The notes: a model not told the origin generated them from the letters alone. 45,562 bases of DNA from a virus (IMGVR_UViG_3300015184_000033); one strand, 5' to 3'. Positions 1-45,562 are shown, numbered from the stretch's first letter. Translations and numbers: made by a program.

Positions 1-27
1 TGTTTACCGTTTCCTGTAAACCGAGGT
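1..27. repeat. Terminal inverted repeat, left copy (27 bp); exact reverse complement of 45536-45562
   Basis: Direct comparison of window ends: TGTTTACCGTTTCCTGTAAACCGAGGT at 1-27 equals the reverse complement of the last 27 nt. Confidence 0.95.
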
Positions 28-1363
28 ATTCGATAACGGCGGCAACGGTCGATTTCGCAAGAATATCCCGCCCGACTTTTGTCAGAGTTGCCAGGCTGGC
101 GACATCATTCCCCGTAAAATACGGAAACCTGTCTGCCGCAGTAGCAAGCCCGGCCAGCGCCGTCAGGGTGGCATCTTTCGGTTGCTTACCCGCAAGCGCG
201 TTAGTCATGGTGGTCGCAAAATTCGGGTCGTTGCCCAACGCCGCAGCCAGCTCGTTCAGCGTATTCAGTGCGTCAGGCGACGAGTCCACGAGGGCAGCGA
301 TCGCAGCCATAACATAAGCCGTGCTTGCGATCTGAGTATTGTTAGTACCTTTTGGCGCAGTTGGTGTTGTTGGTGTTCCGGTCAGCGCCGGACTGTTCAG
401 GGGCGCTTTCTTGTTCGTTTCATCCATTACCACCTTTACAGCTTTCGATGTCGCGGCCAGTGTTTCAGACGTGCTGTTGGTGGCACTACTGAGCTGAGTT
501 ATTCCCCTTACAGTCAGTGAAGCTACAGGCACATTTGTTATCTGCTCCCACGAATGCGTGTGATTGGACGGAGCCTTTCCGGCCGCAAGATCATACGCTG
601 CCTTAACAGCCTTTGGTGTTGCTGCTAGCGTTTCAGACGTGCTGTTGGTGGCACTACTGAGCTGAACAATCCCTTTTCGCGCTGTGGTAGCGTCCTGTGC
701 GGTGTATTTAGCGTTAGCAAGGTCATATGCTGCCTTAACAGCCTTAGGCGTCGCAGCAAGCGTTTCAGACACGCTATTGGTGGCGCTGCTAAGTTGAACA
801 AAGCCTTTTGAGGTTAAAGTTGCATCAGGATGATTACGTGATTGTTCATGTTTCACAATGGATTGCTTAAGCCGCTTTGCTGAAACAGCAAGGGAATCAT
901 CTGTACCGTCATCAATTTCTTGTTCATTGGCAAATCTTGCTACCCCAACAACAGTTTCGGTTGCGGGAGGATTAATAAACTCAATATCACCAAATGTAAT
1001 ATTTTTAGTATCAAGAGTCTTGATTGCTATGTCACTTGATATTAAAGCAATAGTAGATGATGCTTTATTTATTATTGCTTGTTCTTGCGAGTATACAGCA
1101 AACAACGTTCCCTTATTTGTATACAATCCTATTGTATGGACAACATACTCATCTTTACTATCATCCTTCGCCGTCACATGAATTGTATCAGGGGAAACAA
1201 CTTTGCCACCTATTGTGGTAAGTCGTTTTATTTCGTCTGTTATATTTGTTTGTGAGGTTGACGTGACATAATATCTACTACCTAAACCAACAGACACAAT
1301 CTCAACTTTATTTGTTCCTGTTTTGTTGGCATTAACCAACTCCTGACGCCCGGCGTCAGTCAT
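1..1363 (-). CDS. Tail fibre protein, N-terminal constant part; 3' end partial, ORF runs off the window through the gix-like site
   Basis: Hand translation from ATG at 1363-1361 is open to position 1 (MTDAGRQELVNANKTGTNKVEIVSVGLG ... VAAVIEYLGLQETVN); repeated QLSSATNS-SETLAAT-KAVKAAYDLA units typical of P2 H / Mu S-type fibres; not in ORF track because no stop lies in the window. Confidence 0.8.
   Translation of the reverse strand, partial: MTDAGRQELVNANKTGTNKVEIVSVGLGSRYYVTSTSQTNITDEIKRLTTIGGKVVSPDTIHVTAKDDSKDEYVVHTIGLYTNKGTLFAVYSQEQAIINKASSTIALISSDIAIKTLDTKNITFGDIEFINPPATETVVGVARFANEQEIDDGTDDSLAVSAKRLKQSIVKHEQSRNHPDATLTSKGFVQLSSATNSVSETLAATPKAVKAAYDLANAKYTAQDATTARKGIVQLSSATNSTSETLAATPKAVKAAYDLAAGKAPSNHTHSWEQITNVPVASLTVRGITQLSSATNSTSETLAATSKAVKVVMDETNKKAPLNSPALTGTPTTPTAPKGTNNTQIASTAYVMAAIAALVDSSPDALNTLNELAAALGNDPNFATTMTNALAGKQPKDATLTALAGLATAADRFPYFTGNDVASLATLTKVGRDILAKSTVAAVIEYLGLQETVN
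11..36. other. gix/hix-like serine-invertase crossover site (left), TTCCTGTAAACCGAGGTATTCGATAA
   Basis: Close match to remembered Mu gixL (TTCCTGTAAACCGAGGTTTTGGATAA); lies inside the 3' end of the tail-fibre ORF; a Hin/Gin-family invertase gene sits next to the right copy. Confidence 0.6.
440..830. repeat. Three tandem intragenic repeats inside the tail-fibre gene
   Basis: Near-identical DNA blocks around 461-497, 630-667 and 760-800 (gtttcagacgtgctgttggtggcactactgagctga and variants) encoding G-I/F-V-QLSSATNSxSETLAAT-KAVKAAYDLA three times. Confidence 0.8.
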
Positions 1364-1414
1364 CGTAAATAATAATTTACTCACGCTTAATTCCTTGAAT
1401 TAACAAATTGCGAA

Positions 1415-25142: not shown

Positions 25143-25256
25143 CGGGTTATCTCCGGTTTAACCAGGGCGGGTATCGCTCGGTTTCGGGTATAACCATAGG
25201 AAATTTTTTCCCACCTGTAAAGCACTTTTTATATAAATATATAATTATATAATTCT
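25143..25256 (-). promoter_or_regulatory. Conserved promoter/leader cassette, copy 1
   Basis: About 105 bp almost identical to 32094-32200 and 41478-41587; candidate -35 TTTACA, 17-bp spacer, -10 TATGGT, conserved 5' leader and SD GGAGA. Confidence 0.55.
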
Positions 25257-25842
25257 ATGACACTTGCCAGAGAGCATCATGCAACTGGATACCTCCGTTG
25301 CACTGGTTGCCCCAGCCATGCCAGCCATCAGGTAAATCACCGCGAGCAAACAGCTCAATACGAGGAACATCGCCTAACAGCTTTACCAGCTTGTCACGGA
25401 CCACATCAGGCTTCCGAGAATGCTCCAGACGAGGCGATGTAAACGACTGAATGATCCCCGCATCAAGACGTGTCGGTAGTTTGCCTTTCACTGCAAACAA
25501 GCAATCTTCACTGTTTGCACGAGTCATATGCCCCATCCCCATCACCAGCTTATCTGGTTGTCGGCTACCACATTTGTTCCATGTGAAGCCCTTCATGGTC
25601 ATCAGCCTGAATCCCCATGCTTTCACCACCAGCAACGCTTCTTCTGGCTGAGTCGGAACCCACCACATGGCCAACAAACACGATTCAGGATTAGCAAGCT
25701 GCCAGACAGGAATACGAGCAATATCCTCAGCTTTCATCGTTGGATACTTAAAACCAGCGCCACGATTCCCATCCTTACACTTGTCTTTGTATTCCCAGGG
25801 GGGATCTGCATAAATCAGATTAAACAATGCAATTGCCTCCAT
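25255..25842 (-). CDS. MT-A70 family N6-adenine DNA methyltransferase
   Basis: 195-aa ORF with diagnostic DPPW motif (IYADPPWEYK). Confidence 0.8.
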   Translation of the reverse strand: MEAIALFNLIYADPPWEYKDKCKDGNRGAGFKYPTMKAEDIARIPVWQLANPESCLLAMWWVPTQPEEALLVVKAWGFRLMTMKGFTWNKCGSRQPDKLVMGMGHMTRANSEDCLFAVKGKLPTRLDAGIIQSFTSPRLEHSRKPDVVRDKLVKLLGDVPRIELFARGDLPDGWHGWGNQCNGGIQLHDALWQVS

Positions 25843-26150: not shown

Positions 26151-26226
26151 TGGTGGCCCCTACCGGATTTGAACCGATGACCGTGCGATTATGAGTCGCC
26201 TGCTCTAACCACTGAGCTAAGGGGCC
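26151..26226 (-). tRNA. tRNA with CAU anticodon (tRNA-Ile2/lysidine type more likely than tRNA-Met), CCA encoded
   Basis: Hand-folded cloverleaf: acceptor GGCCCCU/AGGGGCC, D-arm GCUC-AGUGGUUA-GAGC, anticodon loop CUCAUAA, T-arm AUCGG-UUCAAAU-CCGGU; 5' half matches remembered enterobacterial ileX. Confidence 0.8.
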
Positions 26227-26310: not shown

Positions 26311-26395
26311 AGACAAACATGGTTGATGCGTGCGCCCATGAGAAAAGCGCATAGAATGTTGTAACTATATATTTATATAATTATAGAAATATATA

Positions 26396-30965: not shown

Positions 30966-31021
30966 TTATATAAATATATAATTCTATATACGGCGGGAGA
31001 CATCCCGCCGTAGGCTTACTG

Positions 31022-32089: not shown

Positions 32090-32215
32090 CAGATTTCTCC
32101 GGTTTAACCAGGGCGGGTATCGCTCGGTTTCGGGTATAACCTTAGGAAATTTTTTCCCACCTGTAAAGCACTTTTTATATAAATCTATAATTATATATTT
32201 ATAGATTTTCGATGT
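32090..32215 (-). promoter_or_regulatory. Conserved promoter/leader cassette, copy 2
   Basis: Identical to copy 3 from tctccggtttaacc through ttatataaatctataattatata; candidate -35 TTTACA and -10 TAAGGT; immediately downstream of Q-like gene. Confidence 0.55.
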
Positions 32216-35911: not shown

Positions 35912-35931
35912 AAGCGGGCTAACGCCCGCTT
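35912..35931 (+). terminator. Putative terminator hairpin
   Basis: AAGCGGGC-TAAC-GCCCGCTT followed by A/T-rich tract. Confidence 0.45.
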
Positions 35932-36036
35932 ATATGATTATAGATTTATATAATTATATAAAACGCTTTTCATCCGCCAAAAAGTTGGTTATGCTTACCT
36001 CGTTCTATAAATATAGATTTATAGAATTATATAACC
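35929..36036. repeat. Two copies of the AT-rich ATAGATTTATATAA-type motif upstream of parF (candidate centromere/operator)
   Basis: gattatagatttatataattatataaaa (35929-35966) and ctataaatatagatttatagaattatataa (36003-36036); third copy at 36709-36743. Confidence 0.5.
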
Positions 36037-36057
36037 AAACACATGGAGTCTCGACAA

Positions 36058-36711
36058 ATGACTATCTCTGTAGGTATTTTCAACGGAAAAGGCGGCGTAA
36101 CCAAATCAACAATTGCCCGTGCTTTAGCAGTTGCTTATGCAAAGGCCGGCTGGAATGTATGCCTGATCGATATGGATGTGCTTAACGGAACGGTAACGCG
36201 TTGGGTACAACGCAGAATGGCCAACAATATCGAACCAGCAATCGCGGCACAGCCGTGCGGCACACCATCACAAGTCCAGAAAATCATCGAATCAGAAGTA
36301 TACGACCTGGTTATCGTAGATGGCGGTGCCTACGCATCTGAATCAGTACCGAAGCTCTCTGAATTTCTGGATATGGTTATTTTGCCAACCAGATTCTCTA
36401 CCGATGACCTGGAAACCACCGTTAACACAGCTCACGGCATCGTTAAAAAGGGTGTACCAATCAAGAAAATTTGCATGGTGTTTTCCGGCGCGGCTGAAAA
36501 CGAAGCTGACTATATTGAAGCCCAAGAGTACCTGGCTAATACGCCATACTTTGTTGTCGATAAGTACATTCCCCACAAGCCAGCTCTGAGCAAAGCTCAG
36601 GATAAGGGCTTAAGCCTCATTGAGTGCTCATACGTTGCGCCACGCAAAAAGGCAGACGACGTTATTCAGGGGATTATCAACCAGCTTGAGGCTCTGACTA
36701 CTGCCGCGTAA
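36058..36711 (+). CDS. ParA/ParF-type partition ATPase
   Basis: Deviant Walker A GKGGVTKST near N-terminus; start placed at ATG 36058 with GGAG 9 nt upstream; about 217 aa as for small type-Ib ParA. Confidence 0.85.
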   Translation: MTISVGIFNGKGGVTKSTIARALAVAYAKAGWNVCLIDMDVLNGTVTRWVQRRMANNIEPAIAAQPCGTPSQVQKIIESEVYDLVIVDGGAYASESVPKLSEFLDMVILPTRFSTDDLETTVNTAHGIVKKGVPIKKICMVFSGAAENEADYIEAQEYLANTPYFVVDKYIPHKPALSKAQDKGLSLIECSYVAPRKKADDVIQGIINQLEALTTAA

Positions 36712-36754
36712 TATATAATTATAGTTTTATAGATTTATATAAGAGGGGATACAC

Positions 36755-37215: not shown

Positions 37216-37230
37216 ATTCAACCATAAAAA

Positions 37231-37248
37231 AGGCCCCCGAAGGGGCCT
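37231..37248 (-). terminator. Intrinsic terminator hairpin
   Basis: AGGCCCC-CGAA-GGGGCCT; on the minus strand followed by TTTTTATGG. Confidence 0.55.
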
Positions 37249-37253
37249 AATCG

Positions 37254-37376
37254 CTACTTGCTGCTAATGTTTATCGTCACATTCAGAGCGTTATCAGTAA
37301 TCTTCCAACCCTCCCCATGTGGCGTAAACAAAGCTCCAGTAACAACGATAAAAATACACATACAGTATTTTTTCAT
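37254..37376 (-). CDS. Small hydrophobic peptide (40 aa), candidate type-I toxin
   Basis: MKKYCMCIFIVVTGALFTPHGEGW...; SD-like AAGGG 5 nt upstream of ATG 37376; terminator immediately downstream. Confidence 0.35.
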   Translation of the reverse strand: MKKYCMCIFIVVTGALFTPHGEGWKITDNALNVTINISSK

Positions 37377-37440
37377 TGTGTGGCCCTTACAGGCCGTTTC
37401 ACGGCATCCCCACCGACGAAAATGACGCGAGAGCAAGCAC

Positions 37441-37460
37441 GCTGTTTGTGCCTGCGTGGT
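37441..37460. repeat. 20-bp direct repeat, copy 1 (GCTGTTTGTGCCTGCGTGGT)
   Basis: Matches 37691-37710 at 19 of 20 positions; lies 65 nt upstream of the small peptide ATG. Confidence 0.85.
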
Positions 37461-37690
37461 ACGGCAAGTGGATAATCCTTTCCTGAAAGTCAGTGCCCGG
37501 GTGCGAATCGGCGGAAAGGCCCCAAGCCATATTACACGTCATACCCTTCATAATGAAGGAATAAAAAACGCTTTTATTACATAAGATTACACGTAAATAA
37601 GTTAAAAACCTTCATTTTGCATGAGCTAATGAGCTAAATTTTTTTATATGAATAGTGGACTATTCACCTCAGTTGGGTAAGAATGTAGTT

Positions 37691-38500: not shown

Positions 38501-38612
38501 TTAGTCTGTTAAAATCCGCCGTATTGACATGAATGCGCCATTGGTGGACACTTTCCGAGCCGTAGCAAAATCTACGGTCGGGATTGGAACCCCGATAATC
38601 ATCATGGCGCAT

Positions 38613-38635
38613 ACCGCGTTAGCGGTTTTTTTATG
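38613..38635 (+). terminator. Attenuator-like hairpin with T-run in the antirepressor leader
   Basis: ACCGC-GTTA-GCGGT followed by TTTTTTTAT; outer arms GCGCATA/TATGCG allow an alternative pairing. Confidence 0.4.
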
Positions 38636-38797
38636 CGTAAAGCACTGCTACACCCAAATTATGGTGGGGCGTGCGGGGGAGTCGTTAGACTCGCCGGATT
38701 CCATGGTGACCGGTAGTTCCAACCCTGTACGTCTCACCACCCAATGATTGGAACCAGACGGTGGTGAGTATCCTTAACCTTTAAGGGAACTATCACC

Positions 38798-38989
38798 ATG
38801 ACAAACTTACCCCATGACTATTACGTCAACCTCGTAAAGATCCTTCTCAAGAAAGCCTCATACGCCGATAAATTACGCCTGGCTGAAATCATCGAGCGCG
38901 AAGCTATGCGCATCGCCAGCAACGATAACGCTGTTTCTGACGCAAAAATCTCCCTCGTAACCAAAGTAGTTATGGGAGGTGCAAAATGA
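38798..38989 (+). CDS. Small protein preceding antirepressor (Icd-like position)
   Basis: 63-aa ORF with SD AAGGGAA; stop overlaps the antirepressor ATG (ATGA). Confidence 0.45.
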   Translation: MTNLPHDYYVNLVKILLKKASYADKLRLAEIIEREAMRIASNDNAVSDAKISLVTKVVMGGAK

Positions 38990-40155
38990 AAACGCTTCCG
39001 ACCGTTAACACCCTACAGCCTATCCTGCATAACCAGATCCCCGTTATCACTACTGAACTTTTGGCGCAGTTTTACGGCACCGAGATCAACAATATCAAAG
39101 TCAATTACACCCGTAATGCTGAAAGGTTTGTTGAGGGAAAACACTTTTTCAAAGTTGGTGGCGATGCCCTGAAAAATTTGCGGGTTACTTTAAGTAACTC
39201 ACAAAATTTGCAACCATCTTTAAGAGGGTTACAAATTTCCCCGAAAGCCCGCTCCCTCATTCTCTGGACAGAACGCGGGGCTGCACGTCACGCTAAAATG
39301 CTCGAAACCGATCAGGCGTGGGATGTATTCGAACGGCTGGAAGACTGCTATTTCAACCAGAACGCGCAAACGGCCGCGACCGTAACCGTCTCGCCAAACA
39401 ATGCTCGTGAGGTTGTCGATACGCTCAACGCCAAACCGATGTTTTACATTAAGGTGTGCAATAACGAGCCACTCACAACCTCAGCCGATGTTGCCCAGGC
39501 ATTCAGCACCACAAACAATTCCATCGTTATGGCCATCGATGCGTTACGCATTCCTCGCACAGCTGCGGCGCGTCATTTCTTTAAAGAGCAACGACCGTTG
39601 GAAGGAAGCGACCGCGAAATAACAATCTATCGCATGACAAAAGACGGATTTACCTTGCTCATGGAAAGTATCGACGGTCCAGGCGTGAAGGATATCAAGC
39701 TGGCCTACATTGAAGCCTTTAACGCTATCAGCAGCGTGTTAAAAACACAGTACGAGCGCGATCTGGCTAAACGACTGTACCAGGAAAAAACGATTATCCG
39801 CGCGGCAACAGAGCATAATCGGCTATTAACGGAACCGAACTACAGGAAGGAACTAATCAAGGAGTTTGACAAGGCAACAGGGAAAACCAAAGCGGCGCTA
39901 AATCTGCCAGCAATGACTCAGGAAAATGTGATATCAGCCTTACTTCTTGATCTGCTCAGAAACGCCAGAGCACTGATCAGCTTTGACGAAAACCTGAATC
40001 CTCAGCTCAAGCTACTACCACCGACAGGCAAAGTAGTCGACCAGGCAGATCACAACAGCATACTCAGCGTACTGGATGCAAACCTGCCAGCCAGGACACT
40101 ACAGGAGCTGATAAAAACATGTGCTGATAAGCTCGCACAGAAAAGCAGACCATAA
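38986..40155 (+). CDS. Antirepressor (AntA-like N-terminal domain)
   Basis: 389-aa ORF; N-terminus HNQIPVITTELLAQFYGTEINNIKVNYTRNAERFVEGKHFFKV matches the phage antirepressor N-terminal signature. Confidence 0.8.
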   Translation: MKTLPTVNTLQPILHNQIPVITTELLAQFYGTEINNIKVNYTRNAERFVEGKHFFKVGGDALKNLRVTLSNSQNLQPSLRGLQISPKARSLILWTERGAARHAKMLETDQAWDVFERLEDCYFNQNAQTAATVTVSPNNAREVVDTLNAKPMFYIKVCNNEPLTTSADVAQAFSTTNNSIVMAIDALRIPRTAAARHFFKEQRPLEGSDREITIYRMTKDGFTLLMESIDGPGVKDIKLAYIEAFNAISSVLKTQYERDLAKRLYQEKTIIRAATEHNRLLTEPNYRKELIKEFDKATGKTKAALNLPAMTQENVISALLLDLLRNARALISFDENLNPQLKLLPPTGKVVDQADHNSILSVLDANLPARTLQELIKTCADKLAQKSRP

Positions 40156-41477: not shown

Positions 41478-41590
41478 CGGGTTATCTCCGGTTTAACCAG
41501 GGCGGGTATCGCTCGGTTTCGGGTATAACCTTAGGAAATTTTTTCCCACCTGTAAAGCACTTTTTATATAAATCTATAATTATATAAGCA
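41478..41590 (-). promoter_or_regulatory. Conserved promoter/leader cassette, copy 3
   Basis: Near-identical to copies at 25143-25256 and 32090-32215. Confidence 0.55.
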
Positions 41591-43743: not shown

Positions 43744-44592
43744 TTAATGTTGGAGTGATTTCCAGGTCTTTCTTAACCTGTTATAACGCTGCTCAACGAG
43801 GGATCGTAAATATGCAAGGTCAGCTCCAGGATACATGCCATCAGCAAATTCCTGGCTAACCTCTCTAGTGATTTGATGACGAAGTTCGGCCTCTCCCTTT
43901 TCCCGAACAAGACGCGCAGCTCTCTCCGCTGCTTTCTGTTTTGCCTTTATCTCTCTGGCCGTCTTCCTCTGACGCCATACATTCTCCATCTGCTCCTGAA
44001 TAACAATACGCTTATAATCAGCCTCCGTTATCGCTTTTTTAAGCCGTTCGCTATTCTTCGCATTGAAGTAATTAAGTTTCTGGCTAACCGCACGTCTCCA
44101 TGCTTGTTCAGTAATACCAACGGTTTCCAGCAGTTGATCACGAATCTCTATTTTCGCTGGCCAATACTGTTTATTCACCCGATCCCAGCGACGTTCATAA
44201 TCAATAAAACCTAACTCTTTCAGTTGCGACAACGCCCTTGTACAGCGCGTTATAGACTTGTTCCCAGCTTCGGATACGGTAGACAGGCCGCAAAAATCAG
44301 CCAACGCCTCAGCACTGGCCAGAACCCGCTTAGAAATGATGTTTACATGGTGCAAAATCGCAGCAATCACAGCATTAATTGCCCGACGACGATGCTCGTT
44401 TATCCGGCGTTTCCGCTCTGACGGTTGATTAACGTAGAACGCAACCTCACACGTAAGATCACGACCATTAATGCGCTGTAAAGCATCAGATAACACCAGC
44501 GGCAGCTTGTGCGTATGGTGCTTTGGAGGCTGGAACTCCGGCGACAAATTACAAACGTAAGCTGAACGTAGAGACGGCATTGGTCTATCCAT
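43744..44592 (-). CDS. repA: Replication initiator RepA (IncFII RepA1 family)
   Basis: Block SITRCTRALSQLKELGFIDYE aligns with remembered R100 RepA1 SITRATRALTFLSELGLITYQ; start set at ATG 44592 because the tracked ORF starts at GTG 44736 and its first codons overlap an antisense-strand terminator hairpin. Confidence 0.75.
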   Translation of the reverse strand: MDRPMPSLRSAYVCNLSPEFQPPKHHTHKLPLVLSDALQRINGRDLTCEVAFYVNQPSERKRRINEHRRRAINAVIAAILHHVNIISKRVLASAEALADFCGLSTVSEAGNKSITRCTRALSQLKELGFIDYERRWDRVNKQYWPAKIEIRDQLLETVGITEQAWRRAVSQKLNYFNAKNSERLKKAITEADYKRIVIQEQMENVWRQRKTAREIKAKQKAAERAARLVREKGEAELRHQITREVSQEFADGMYPGADLAYLRSLVEQRYNRLRKTWKSLQH

Positions 44593-44690
44593 ATGTTCGC
44601 TCTTGCGTCCACGGAAAACCAACGTATAATGGGAGTTGTCGAGGCGCCCATGGTTAGTTGTTGGTTTTCCTTTCCGTGGATGTCGCAAGA

Positions 44691-44722
44691 AGCCCGCAGA
44701 TTTATCTGCGGGCTTTTTGTTT
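44691..44722 (+). terminator. Hairpin plus T-run antisense to the repA leader (candidate CopA-like antisense RNA terminator)
   Basis: GCCCGCAGA-TTTA-TCTGCGGGC followed by TTTTTGTTT on the plus strand. Confidence 0.45.
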
Positions 44723-44762
44723 CCATATCTGGTCACTTTTCAACCAGACACCCACAATCATA

Positions 44763-44907: not shown

Positions 44908-45462
44908 TCAATGATTCCCAGCCGGAAACCTGCGGTAAAGCGTGGATAAGGTAACATCGAAGATAATCGCTATCCGCTTACGTGAAACACCATTCGCAAT
45001 AAGCCTTCCGATCTGTTCCCATTGCTCTGGTGCCAATTTTGAGCGGCGTCCTCCTATCCTGCCGTTAGCCCTTGCCACCGCCAATCCTGCACGCGTTCTT
45101 TCAATCATATTTTCCCGCTCCATCTCTGCGACTGCACTCAGCATCGTGTAGGCAAAGCGGCCAATTGAAGTGCTAATTTTTATCCCTTCCGTAATCGAAA
45201 TAAACTCAATGTTGTTTGATAAAAAATGGTTAAGTAAATCAACAAGATGAATCAGAGAACGCCCCATTCGGTCCAGCTTCCAGACAATAACCGTATCGCC
45301 CGGCCGTAACACCTTCAGTAGCTTATCAAGTCCTGGTCGTTTTGATTTAGCACCGGATATTTTATCTTCAAAAATCCGGTCACATCCTGAACTCCTGAGC
45401 GCCTCCAGTTGTAATTCCAAATTCTGGTCAAAAGTTGACACCCTCGCATAACCATATTGCAT
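44908..45462 (-). CDS. Serine recombinase, DNA invertase of the Hin/Gin/Cin/Pin family
   Basis: 184-aa ORF; MQYGYARVSTFDQNLELQ...GDTVIVWKLDRMGRS...RIAIIFDVTLSTLYRRFPAGNH parallels remembered Hin sequence including catalytic Ser region and C-terminal HTH. Confidence 0.9.
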   Translation of the reverse strand: MQYGYARVSTFDQNLELQLEALRSSGCDRIFEDKISGAKSKRPGLDKLLKVLRPGDTVIVWKLDRMGRSLIHLVDLLNHFLSNNIEFISITEGIKISTSIGRFAYTMLSAVAEMERENMIERTRAGLAVARANGRIGGRRSKLAPEQWEQIGRLIANGVSRKRIAIIFDVTLSTLYRRFPAGNH

Positions 45463-45526: not shown

Positions 45527-45552
45527 TTCGCAAAAACCTCGGTTTACAGGAA
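45527..45552. other. gix/hix-like invertase crossover site (right), TTCGCAAAAACCTCGGTTTACAGGAA
   Basis: Inverted relative to site at 11-36; close to remembered gix (TTATCCAAAACCTCGGTTTACAGGAA); 65 bp from invertase gene start. Confidence 0.6.
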
Positions 45553-45562
45553 ACGGTAAACA
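45536..45562. repeat. Terminal inverted repeat, right copy (27 bp)
   Basis: Exact reverse complement of positions 1-27. Confidence 0.95.

What the first reader, a model, noticed from the sequence alone, without database searches (positions are those of the whole stretch)
1..36. Window is bounded by inverted gix-like sites; the tail-fibre ORF reads through the left site, implying an invertible tail-fibre segment just outside the window
Positions 1-27 are the exact reverse complement of 45536-45562. Both copies contain a 26-bp sequence close to Gin/Hin crossover sites, and a Hin-family invertase gene ends 65 bp from the right copy. The tail-fibre ORF is still open at position 1 and its last codons (EYLGLQETVN) are encoded by the site itself, as in Mu S and P1 S where the constant fibre part is fused to alternative C-termini by inversion. 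The window may be a contig that broke at the inversion repeats.
Basis: partly seen in the sequence, partly recalled or inferred. Interest (0 to 1): 0.6.

Follow-up and report, generated by a model that had tools for sequence, protein, structure and literature searches.

The report
Mu-type invertible tail-fibre switch, cut by assembly
The window is a whole ~48.6-kb E. coli plasmid-prophage lacking only a ~3-kb DNA segment that a Gin-like enzyme flips to swap the tip of the tail fibre; this is a well-known kind of host-range switch, here in a plasmid-phage family where no description of it was found.

Summary

- **Sites.** Window 1-27 is the exact reverse complement of 45536-45562. The only two matches to the phage Mu gix site lie at 11-36 and 45527-45552, with none expected by chance.
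- **Genes.** A tail-fibre frame (window 2-1384, minus strand) is open for 461 codons and ends ...EYLGLQETVN at the left end. A 184-aa serine invertase, 55% identical to Mu Gin, starts 64 nt from the right site.
- **What is missing.** Near-identical complete circular genomes (Yersinia phages vB_YpM_39/41/44 and many 46-50 kb E. coli plasmids, including one in ATCC 25922) are collinear with the whole window. Between its two ends they carry a 2.9-3.3 kb segment laid out as in Mu: fibre C-terminal cassette, chaperone gene, then a second chaperone gene and cassette on the other strand.
- **Inversion seen directly.** Two assemblies each hold two copies of the element with the segment as an exact reverse complement and identical flanks. 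One of them encodes the window's exact invertase. A marker base confines the crossover to 10 bp around the central GA.

The window is therefore a contig that broke at the inversion sites. This is a new member of a known kind, and interest is low.

The parts
1..27 (.). Left arm of the terminal inverted repeat: 22 nt of segment-internal sequence, the 2-nt core, and 3 nt of outer half-site
   Evidence: Exact reverse complement of 45536-45562. Identical to the end of the Mu G segment, TGTTTACCGT TTCCTGTAAACC GA GGT.
11..36 (+). Left 26-bp gix-like crossover site (TTCCTGTAAACC GA GGTATTCGATAA), central dinucleotide at 23-24; lies inside the tail-fibre coding sequence
   Evidence: 24 of 26 bases match Mu gix; 0 matches expected by chance. 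Same site in all relatives.
2..1384 (-). Constant N-terminal part of the tail-fibre gene (461 codons, no stop), equivalent to Mu Sc. Its last 7 codons (GLQETVN, window 2-22) lie beyond the crossover and belong to the variable cassette
   Evidence: Open frame. Pfam Phage_fiber_2, E 2.7e-58. Continues into 744-840 aa fibre genes in relatives.
45527..45552 (-). Right 26-bp gix-like crossover site (TTCCTGTAAACC GA GGTTTTTGCGAA), central dinucleotide at 45539-45540
   Evidence: 23 of 26 bases match Mu gix. Same site in relatives next to the invertase gene.
45536..45562 (.). Right arm of the terminal inverted repeat; 45541-45562 is the start of the silent cassette, read inward
   Evidence: The + frame reads ...RKNLGLQETVN with no start codon upstream.
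44908..45462 (-). Gin/Hin-family serine DNA invertase gene (184 aa, Ser9), read away from the right site
   Evidence: Resolvase + HTH_7. E 8.8e-62 to the Mu Gin structure 3UJ3. 55% identity to Mu Gin over 181 aa. Identical protein in L010/L011, where both orientations are seen.
45378..45440 (-). Candidate recombinational enhancer: two Fis-consensus 15-mers (45426-45440 TGTCAACTTTTGACC; 45378-45392 GTTCAGGATGTGACC), centres 48 bp apart, at +30 and +78 of the invertase gene
   Evidence: Same +30/+78 pair in Mu gin and in a Cin-like gene, absent from a Tn3-type resolvase gene. 2% of shuffles give any 48-bp pair and 0.02% give this one. Consensus match only; binding was not tested.

Best explanation
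The window is the constant part of a circular plasmid-prophage of about 48.6 kb, with contractile-tail and P2-type baseplate genes and an IncFII-type RepA. The assembly broke at the two crossover sites of a Mu G-segment-type inversion switch.

**How it works.**
- The serine invertase (44908-45462) binds the two inverted 26-bp gix-like sites (11-36 and 45527-45552).
- It is probably activated by host Fis bound to an enhancer inside the 5' part of its own gene. It cuts both sites at the central GA and rotates the half-sites. This flips a ~3-kb segment that is absent from the window except for its terminal 22 nt on each side.
- The segment carries two opposed fibre C-terminal cassettes, each with its own tail-fibre assembly chaperone gene.
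- Only the cassette joined in frame to the constant 461-codon N-terminal part is expressed. The junction peptide ...EYLG|LQETVN... is encoded by the site itself. A lysogen population therefore releases phage with either of two receptor-binding tips.

**Shown:** the sites, the invertase, the open fibre frame, the segment architecture and both orientations in near-identical relatives, and the crossover within 10 bp of the core.

**Inferred:** Fis dependence, the host-range consequence, the content of the window's own segment, and that both orientations were present in the sequenced sample.
For: **Sites and repeat**
- 27-nt exact terminal inverted repeat.
- Only two gix matches in the window, one at each end, 0 expected by chance.
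- Inner half-site, core and inner flank identical to Mu gixL.

**Invertase**
- Resolvase+HTH_7; E 8.8e-62 to the Gin structure; 55% identity to Gin.

**Fibre**
- Frame open through the site, with fibre repeats.

**Collinearity**
- Window 3-45562 is collinear with the circular plasmid JE86-ST05_p3 (positions 1777-47534). The only arc missing is the 2,908 bp between its two sites.
- Same result for vB_YpM_41/44/39.

**Segment content in relatives**
- Two Caudo_TAP genes and two cassettes.
- One cassette type is more than 90% identical to Mu S'.

**Inversion**
- L010 vs L011, same contig, window's exact invertase: 3,035-bp exact reverse complement, flanks identical.
- L020 vs L022, ATCC 25922 plasmid two-copy record: 3,058-bp exact reverse complement, with a T/C marker in the inner half-site moving with the segment.
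- Seven cassette types are found in the expressed position in one genome and the silent position in another.

**Enhancer**
- Fis-consensus pair at the positions homologous to those in Mu gin.

**Other contigs breaking at this repeat**
- L016 and L029.
Against: - The window's own segment is not available, so its cassettes, its intactness and its orientation mixture are not observed.
- The enhancer rests on a degenerate consensus inside conserved coding sequence.
- No sigma-70-like promoter was found between the right site and the invertase gene.
- The assembler and its k-mer size are unknown, so a break caused by a very small k rather than by mixed orientations cannot be excluded.
Confidence: 0.93

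Rival explanations
1. The switch architecture is present but frozen in this particular element. The segment sits in one orientation, and the contig broke only because the assembler could not pass the 27-nt inverted repeat or because coverage dropped.
For: The assembler and k are unknown. L029 shows that longer inverted repeats (over 46 nt) exist in some relatives and could break assemblies on their own.
Against: - The invertase is intact and identical to the protein in a contig where both orientations co-exist, and both sites are intact.
- Inference: a 27-nt repeat breaks a de Bruijn assembly only if k is at most 27. The contig ends would then carry at most k-1 = 26 nt of the repeat, not the full 27 nt observed.
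Confidence: 0.05
2. The missing DNA is a multi-site, multi-cassette inversion region with more than two crossover sites (as in the Min system of plasmid p15B), not a simple two-cassette segment.
For: At least 10 cassette types and a second cassette class circulate in the family. The chaperone module is independently inverted between vB_YpM_41 and _44.
Against: - Every complete relative examined has exactly two good sites and one 2.9-3.3 kb segment.
- The window length plus ~3 kb matches the 48-49 kb of complete relatives.
Confidence: 0.02
3. The terminal inverted repeat marks the ends of a linear replicon (hairpin telomeres as in N15-type plasmid prophages, or transposon-like terminal repeats), or is a fold-back assembly artefact.
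For: A perfect inverted repeat at both contig ends is formally what such ends look like.
Against: - Relatives are circular and continue through both sites into a fibre-cassette segment.
- The repeat is a gix site identical to Mu's, lies inside an open fibre frame and sits next to a Gin homologue.
Confidence: 0.01

Closest known systems
Phage Mu G segment with Gin invertase (Sc - Sv U / U' S'v - gin)
   Same: - Same gene order.
- Same 22-nt segment ends and inner half-site, and the same GA core.
- Segment 2,984-3,271 bp in relatives against 3,056 bp in Mu.
- Same junction peptide GLQETVN, and the same 175/177-aa chaperone pair.
- One cassette type more than 90% identical to Mu S'.
- Invertase 55% identical to Gin.
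- Fis-consensus pair at the same gene positions.
- Invertase gene just outside the segment and read away from it.
   Different: - The backbone is an IncFII-RepA plasmid-prophage with a different constant fibre part, not a transposable phage.
- The outer half-sites differ from Mu's and from each other (GGTATTCGATAA and GGTTTTTGCGAA against GGTTTTGGATAA).
- The inverted repeat is 27 nt in the window, against 34 bp quoted for Mu (from my own knowledge).
- The cassette repertoire is highly variable between otherwise near-identical genomes.
P1/P7/D6 C segment with Cin invertase
   Same: - Also a plasmid-prophage with an invertible S-U / U'-S' region and an adjacent invertase (PMC6799933).
- The window also has P1-type C4 antisense RNA immunity.
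- IS26 replacement of the region occurs in both families (L007, L012).
   Different: - P1-type elements are about 90-100 kb with a different replicon.
- P1's C segment is flanked by roughly 0.6-kb inverted repeats (from my own knowledge).
- The window's sites match gix, not cix.
Salmonella Hin / H segment, the e14 Pin / P segment and other prophage Pin systems
   Same: Same enhancer-dependent serine invertase subclass, with two 26-bp sites and a Fis-bound enhancer (PMC3798978).
   Different: Hin flips a promoter rather than swapping gene ends. Pin systems sit in defective chromosomal prophages.
Min multiple-inversion system of plasmid p15B
   Same: Plasmid-borne prophage-like element whose fibre gene 3' ends are shuffled by a Din-family invertase (from my own knowledge).
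   Different: p15B has six crossover sites and many cassettes. Relatives of the window have two sites and two cassettes.

Membership tests
Enhancer-dependent serine DNA invertases (Gin/Hin/Cin/Pin subclass) | Small serine recombinase: N-terminal catalytic domain with the nucleophilic serine near residue 9-10, and a C-terminal helix-turn-helix domain | tested here: met
   Resolvase (E 2.6e-44) plus HTH_7 (E 2.9e-13). Full-length alignment to the Gin structures 3UJ3/4M6F, with Ser9 aligned to the Gin serine. 55% identity to Mu Gin.
Enhancer-dependent serine DNA invertases (Gin/Hin/Cin/Pin subclass) | Two 26-bp imperfectly symmetric recombination sites in inverted orientation with identical central dinucleotides | tested here: met
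   Sites at 11-36 and 45527-45552, inverted, both with core GA, 24/26 and 23/26 matches to Mu gix, 0 expected by chance. The family definition is in PMC3798978.
Enhancer-dependent serine DNA invertases (Gin/Hin/Cin/Pin subclass) | The DNA between the sites actually inverts | tested here: met
   Exact reverse-complement segments with identical flanks within single assemblies of relatives: L010/L011 with the identical invertase, and L020/L022. For the window's own DNA this cannot be tested, because the segment and the reads are absent.
Enhancer-dependent serine DNA invertases (Gin/Hin/Cin/Pin subclass) | Strand exchange at the central 2 bp of the site | tested here: inconclusive
   In the ATCC 25922 plasmid the T/C marker 5 nt inside the core moves with the segment, and the outer half-sites stay put. 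The crossover is thus confined to AAACC-GA-GGT. This is consistent, but the resolution is 10 bp, not 2 bp.
Enhancer-dependent serine DNA invertases (Gin/Hin/Cin/Pin subclass) | Cis-acting enhancer of about 60 bp with two Fis sites; for Mu it lies within the invertase gene | tested here: inconclusive
   Two Fis-consensus 15-mers 48 bp apart at +30/+78, at the same positions in Mu gin and a Cin-like gene and absent from a resolvase control. This is a consensus match in conserved coding DNA only. Fis binding and dependence cannot be tested with these tools.
Mu G-segment-type invertible tail-fibre module | The constant N-terminal fibre part reads through the crossover site into the segment | tested here: met
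   461-codon open frame ending ...EYLGLQETVN at window position 2. The site codons are Y-L-G-L-Q.
Mu G-segment-type invertible tail-fibre module | The segment holds two opposed variable C-terminal cassettes, each followed by its own tail-fibre assembly gene | tested here: met
   Met in all complete relatives. Inferred, not seen, for the window itself.
Mu G-segment-type invertible tail-fibre module | The two orientations give phage with different host ranges | not testable with these tools
   Needs adsorption or plating assays with orientation-locked phage.

The most novel reading that the evidence does not exclude
The conserved 22-nt segment end with its GLQETVN junction acts as a universal splice joint. 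Through it this plasmid-phage family, Mu, P1-like plasmid-prophages and chromosomal prophages would draw on one shared, rapidly exchanged pool of fibre-tip cassettes.

Observations that prompt this reading:
- At least 10 cassette types in about 10 backbones that are 97-99% identical, one of them shared with Mu at more than 90% identity.
- A second tier of rearrangement: the chaperone pair flips independently of the cassettes.
- One contig (L009) places the segment between invertase genes of two different plasmid-prophages.

If the invertase itself mediates exchange between replicons, the switch would also work as a cassette-capture device.
Probability: 0.2. Interest if true: 0.45.

Novelty: new member of a known kind. 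Interest (0 to 1): 0.2.

Why it matters
**Biology.** This is the classic Mu/P1 host-range switch, so it adds no new principle. It does show that a very common E. coli plasmid-prophage carries an active, Mu-identical fibre switch with a highly variable cassette set. About 700 plasmid records match, including a plasmid of the quality-control strain ATCC 25922. That bears on the host range of this family and on its use or avoidance in phage work.

**Practice.** It explains a recurrent assembly pattern: a ~45.5-kb contig with a 27-nt terminal inverted repeat, plus a separate ~3-kb contig. It also warns that such contigs are incomplete genomes whose fibre gene is truncated.

Tried and rejected
- **Whole-segment flip between vB_YpM_41 and _44.** Their chaperone ORF lengths swap, which suggested this. 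It was rejected: the outer junctions are the same, and only the inner ~1.2-kb chaperone module is inverted.
- **Contig-length bins for the invertase as evidence of recurrent breaks.** 856 blocks fall in the 20-50 kb bin. This was rejected as evidence, because intact 48-49 kb genomes fall in the same bin.
- **NCBIfam.** It gave no specific model for the invertase, fibre or chaperones.
- **Promoter scan.** It found no sigma-70-like site between the right site and the invertase gene.
- **Literature.**
  - Searches for vB_YpM, for ATCC 25922 with phage-plasmid, for IncFII with P2-like, and for inversion with Gin found no description of this family's switch.
  - The ETEC paper was irrelevant.
  - An id I recalled from memory for a review on serine invertases (PMC4384473) is not held.
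- **PLSDB typing.** It gave no replicon name.
- **Hairpin-telomere and transposon-end readings.** Both were rejected on the circular relatives.
- **The window's own source assembly.** It was not traced, so its segment contig was not recovered.

Full report
**1. The observation**

Both ends of the window were read. Window 1-27 is the exact reverse complement of 45536-45562, and the match extends to 30 nt with one mismatch.

The real Mu gix sequence was taken from the Mu genome record (L004) and searched in the window with up to 3 mismatches. It hits exactly twice, with none expected in 100 shuffles:

| Position | Strand | Mismatches | Sequence |
|---|---|---|---|
| 11-36 | + | 2 | TTCCTGTAAACC GA GGTATTCGATAA |
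| 45527-45552 | - | 3 | TTCCTGTAAACC GA GGTTTTTGCGAA |

The central dinucleotides are at 23-24 and 45539-45540. Window 1-22 and 45541-45562 therefore lie on the segment side of the crossover point.

The minus-strand frame from 1384 to 2 is open for 461 codons and ends ...AAVIEYLGLQETVN. It carries phage tail-fibre repeats (Pfam Phage_fiber_2, E 2.7e-58).

The ORF at 44908-45462 (-) is a 184-aa Resolvase+HTH_7 protein. Its start codon is 64 nt from the right site, and it is read away from the site.

**2. What lies between the two ends**

The window is 98.7% identical to three complete circular phage genomes, Yersinia phages vB_YpM_41, _44 and _39 (49.0-49.1 kb). In each of them the two window ends map about 3 kb apart.

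The window is also collinear, end to end, with the circular E. coli plasmid JE86-ST05_p3 (48,666 bp). Window 3-45562 matches plasmid 1777-47534. The only arc of that plasmid missing from the window is the 2,908 bp between its two sites.

In all relatives that arc has the Mu layout:
- the fibre gene continues through the left site into a C-terminal cassette;
- a 175- or 177-aa Caudo_TAP chaperone gene follows;
- on the other strand lie a second chaperone gene and a second, promoterless cassette that abuts the right site;
- the invertase gene comes next.

Between the core dinucleotides the segment is 2,984-3,271 bp in relatives and 3,056 bp in Mu. The window plus a 3,058-bp segment gives 48,576 bp, the size of complete relatives.

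The window is therefore the whole element minus the segment.

**3. Does the segment invert?**

Two assemblies each contain two copies of the element.

- **Contig CABEEY010000004.1** (77 kb; loci L010 and L011). Its invertase is identical to the window's. The 3,035 bp between the cores in one copy are the exact reverse complement of the other copy, and 2 kb of flank on each side are identical.
- **Record NZ_CP032086.1**, 94,204 bp, a plasmid of E. coli ATCC 25922 (loci L020 and L022). Its invertase differs from the window's by one residue.
  - The 3,058-bp segment is again an exact reverse complement, with identical flanks.
  - The annotated fibre protein changes from WP_145772481.1 to WP_341485483.1.
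  - A T/C difference in the inner half-site (TTCCTG[T/C]AAACC) moves with the segment, while the differing outer half-sites stay. The exchange point is thus confined to AAACC-GA-GGT, which contains the dinucleotide where this enzyme family cuts.

Across about 10 relatives there are at least 10 cassette types. Seven of them occur in the expressed position in one genome and the silent position in another.

**4. Relation to Mu**

- The 22 nt at each window end, the core and the first 3 nt of the outer half-site are identical to the left end of the Mu G segment.
- The junction peptide GLQETVN and the 175/177-aa chaperone pair are the same as in Mu.
- One cassette type in relatives is more than 90% identical to Mu S'.
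- The invertase is 55% identical to Gin over 181 residues. It aligns over its full length with the Gin crystal structures, with the catalytic serine in place.

In this enzyme subclass, recombination needs two 26-bp sites and a roughly 60-bp enhancer with two Fis sites. In Mu the enhancer lies within the invertase gene (PMC3798978 and the references it cites).

A degenerate Fis consensus was scanned over the invertase genes:
- The window's invertase gene has a pair of matches centred at +30 and +78, 48 bp apart (window 45426-45440 and 45378-45392).
- The same pair is at the same positions in Mu gin and in a Cin-like gene (L009).
- It is absent from a Tn3-type resolvase gene.
- 2% of shuffles give any 48-bp-spaced pair.

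The 48-bp spacing rule and the consensus come from my own knowledge of the Hin/Cin literature. The match lies in conserved coding DNA, so I treat the enhancer as inferred.

**5. Why the contig ends where it does** (inference)

If both orientations are present in the sequenced DNA, an assembly graph forks at the first base where the two cassettes differ. The constant contig then runs through the outer half-site, the core and the shared inner sequence, and stops there on both sides. That produces a terminal inverted repeat equal to the full shared length, which is what is seen (27 nt).

Relatives have inner flanks reading ...C|TGTTTACC...T|TGTTTACC or ...TGATTTACC. A stop exactly at TGTTT therefore fits one cassette starting N-R and the other starting N-K.

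A plain 27-nt repeat would break a de Bruijn assembly only at k of 27 or less, and would then leave at most 26 nt at each end.

Other public contigs break at the same repeat:
- IMG/VR contig L016 ends 32 nt inside the segment.
- Metagenome contig L029 (3,059 bp) is the counterpart of the window. It is the segment itself, starting exactly at ACC|TC, which is the outer limit of the repeat.

The assembler is unknown, so this point is supportive, not decisive.

**6. Rivals**

- **Frozen switch, with the break caused by the repeat alone.** Not excluded, but unlikely given the intact sites and an invertase identical to one seen with both orientations.
- **Multi-site shuffling region.** Unlikely, because all relatives have two sites and the sizes add up.
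- **Hairpin telomeres, transposon ends or a fold-back artefact.** Contradicted by the circular relatives and by the identity of the repeat.

**7. Novelty**

Invertible fibre regions with an adjacent invertase are textbook for Mu, P1, e14 and p15B. They are also described for D6-like plasmid-prophages (PMC6799933).

I found no paper describing this switch in the roughly 48-kb IncFII-RepA plasmid-phage family. The searchable library is partial, and the GenBank records already label the gene hin or recombinase.

I rate it a new member of a known kind, with low interest.

Noticed in passing
window 43744-44736 (-), 36043-36711 (+): An IncFII-type RepA gene (NCBIfam RepA_IncFII_LM, E 8e-69) lies right next to the invertase gene, and relatives annotate a ParA gene. 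The element is a plasmid-prophage. About 700 plasmid records match, among them dozens of 46-50 kb circular plasmids of E. coli, E. fergusonii and E. albertii, including pATCC25922_1 of the reference strain ATCC 25922.
   Followed up: partly
window 25230-25257, 26366-26393, 30969-30988, 32178-32203, 35931-36031, 36712-36739, 41567-41586: An AT-rich 20-mer (TATAAATCTATAATTATATA) occurs 14 times (up to 3 mismatches) at 7 intergenic places, against 0.01 expected. These look like dispersed operator or promoter sites for a phage regulator, reminiscent of the scattered C1 operators of P1.
   Followed up: partly
window 38559-38632 (+), 38657-38744 (+), 38986-40155 (+): Rfam isrK and C4 antisense RNA lie just upstream of an ORF6N/pRha antirepressor-like ORF. 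This is a P1/P7 immI-type immunity region in a phage with P2-type baseplate and tail genes.
   Followed up: no
window 37226-37524 (-) and 26151-26226 (-): A full-length ryfA sRNA match (131 bits) and a tRNA-Met (CAT) gene.
   Followed up: no
L001 3516-4720 versus L002 3514-4717: Between the near-identical phages vB_YpM_41 and vB_YpM_44, the ~1.2-kb module holding both chaperone genes is inverted, while the two fibre cassettes keep their orientation. The module is bounded by ~405-bp imperfect inverted repeats (75-83% identical) that cover the fibre tips and the chaperone gene starts. Across relatives the same cassette type is found next to either the 175-aa or the 177-aa chaperone. This could be a second rearrangement by homologous recombination, or a misassembly.
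   Followed up: partly
L009 5693-10555: On a 137-kb contig the invertible segment lies between a P1-like Cin-type invertase gene (with DarA/LydB neighbours) and this family's invertase and RepA genes. This is either an assembly chimera across the shared segment or a cointegrate of two plasmid-prophages.
   Followed up: no
L015, L024, L026 (right-site junction): In three metagenome or virome contigs the invertase-side site is joined to a different cassette class (GLRELGTSGEKIP...) with a different inner half-site (TTCTCGTAAACC). Cassettes of another inversion family can apparently occupy this locus.
   Followed up: no
L007 8920-9624, L012 9066-9770: In two relatives an IS26-type transposase gene abuts the right site and the fibre segment is gone, replaced in L007 by resistance-type genes (APH, an ABC-F-like ABC ATPase). 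These look like defective plasmid derivatives, paralleling the IS26 replacement reported for D6-like prophages.
   Followed up: no
L001 2200-6450 as query against E. coli genomes: 1,920 of 5,426 complete E. coli genomes hold a match to this fibre, chaperone and cassette region, mostly on chromosomes (3,134 places). The cassette and chaperone modules are shared very widely among E. coli prophages.
   Followed up: no
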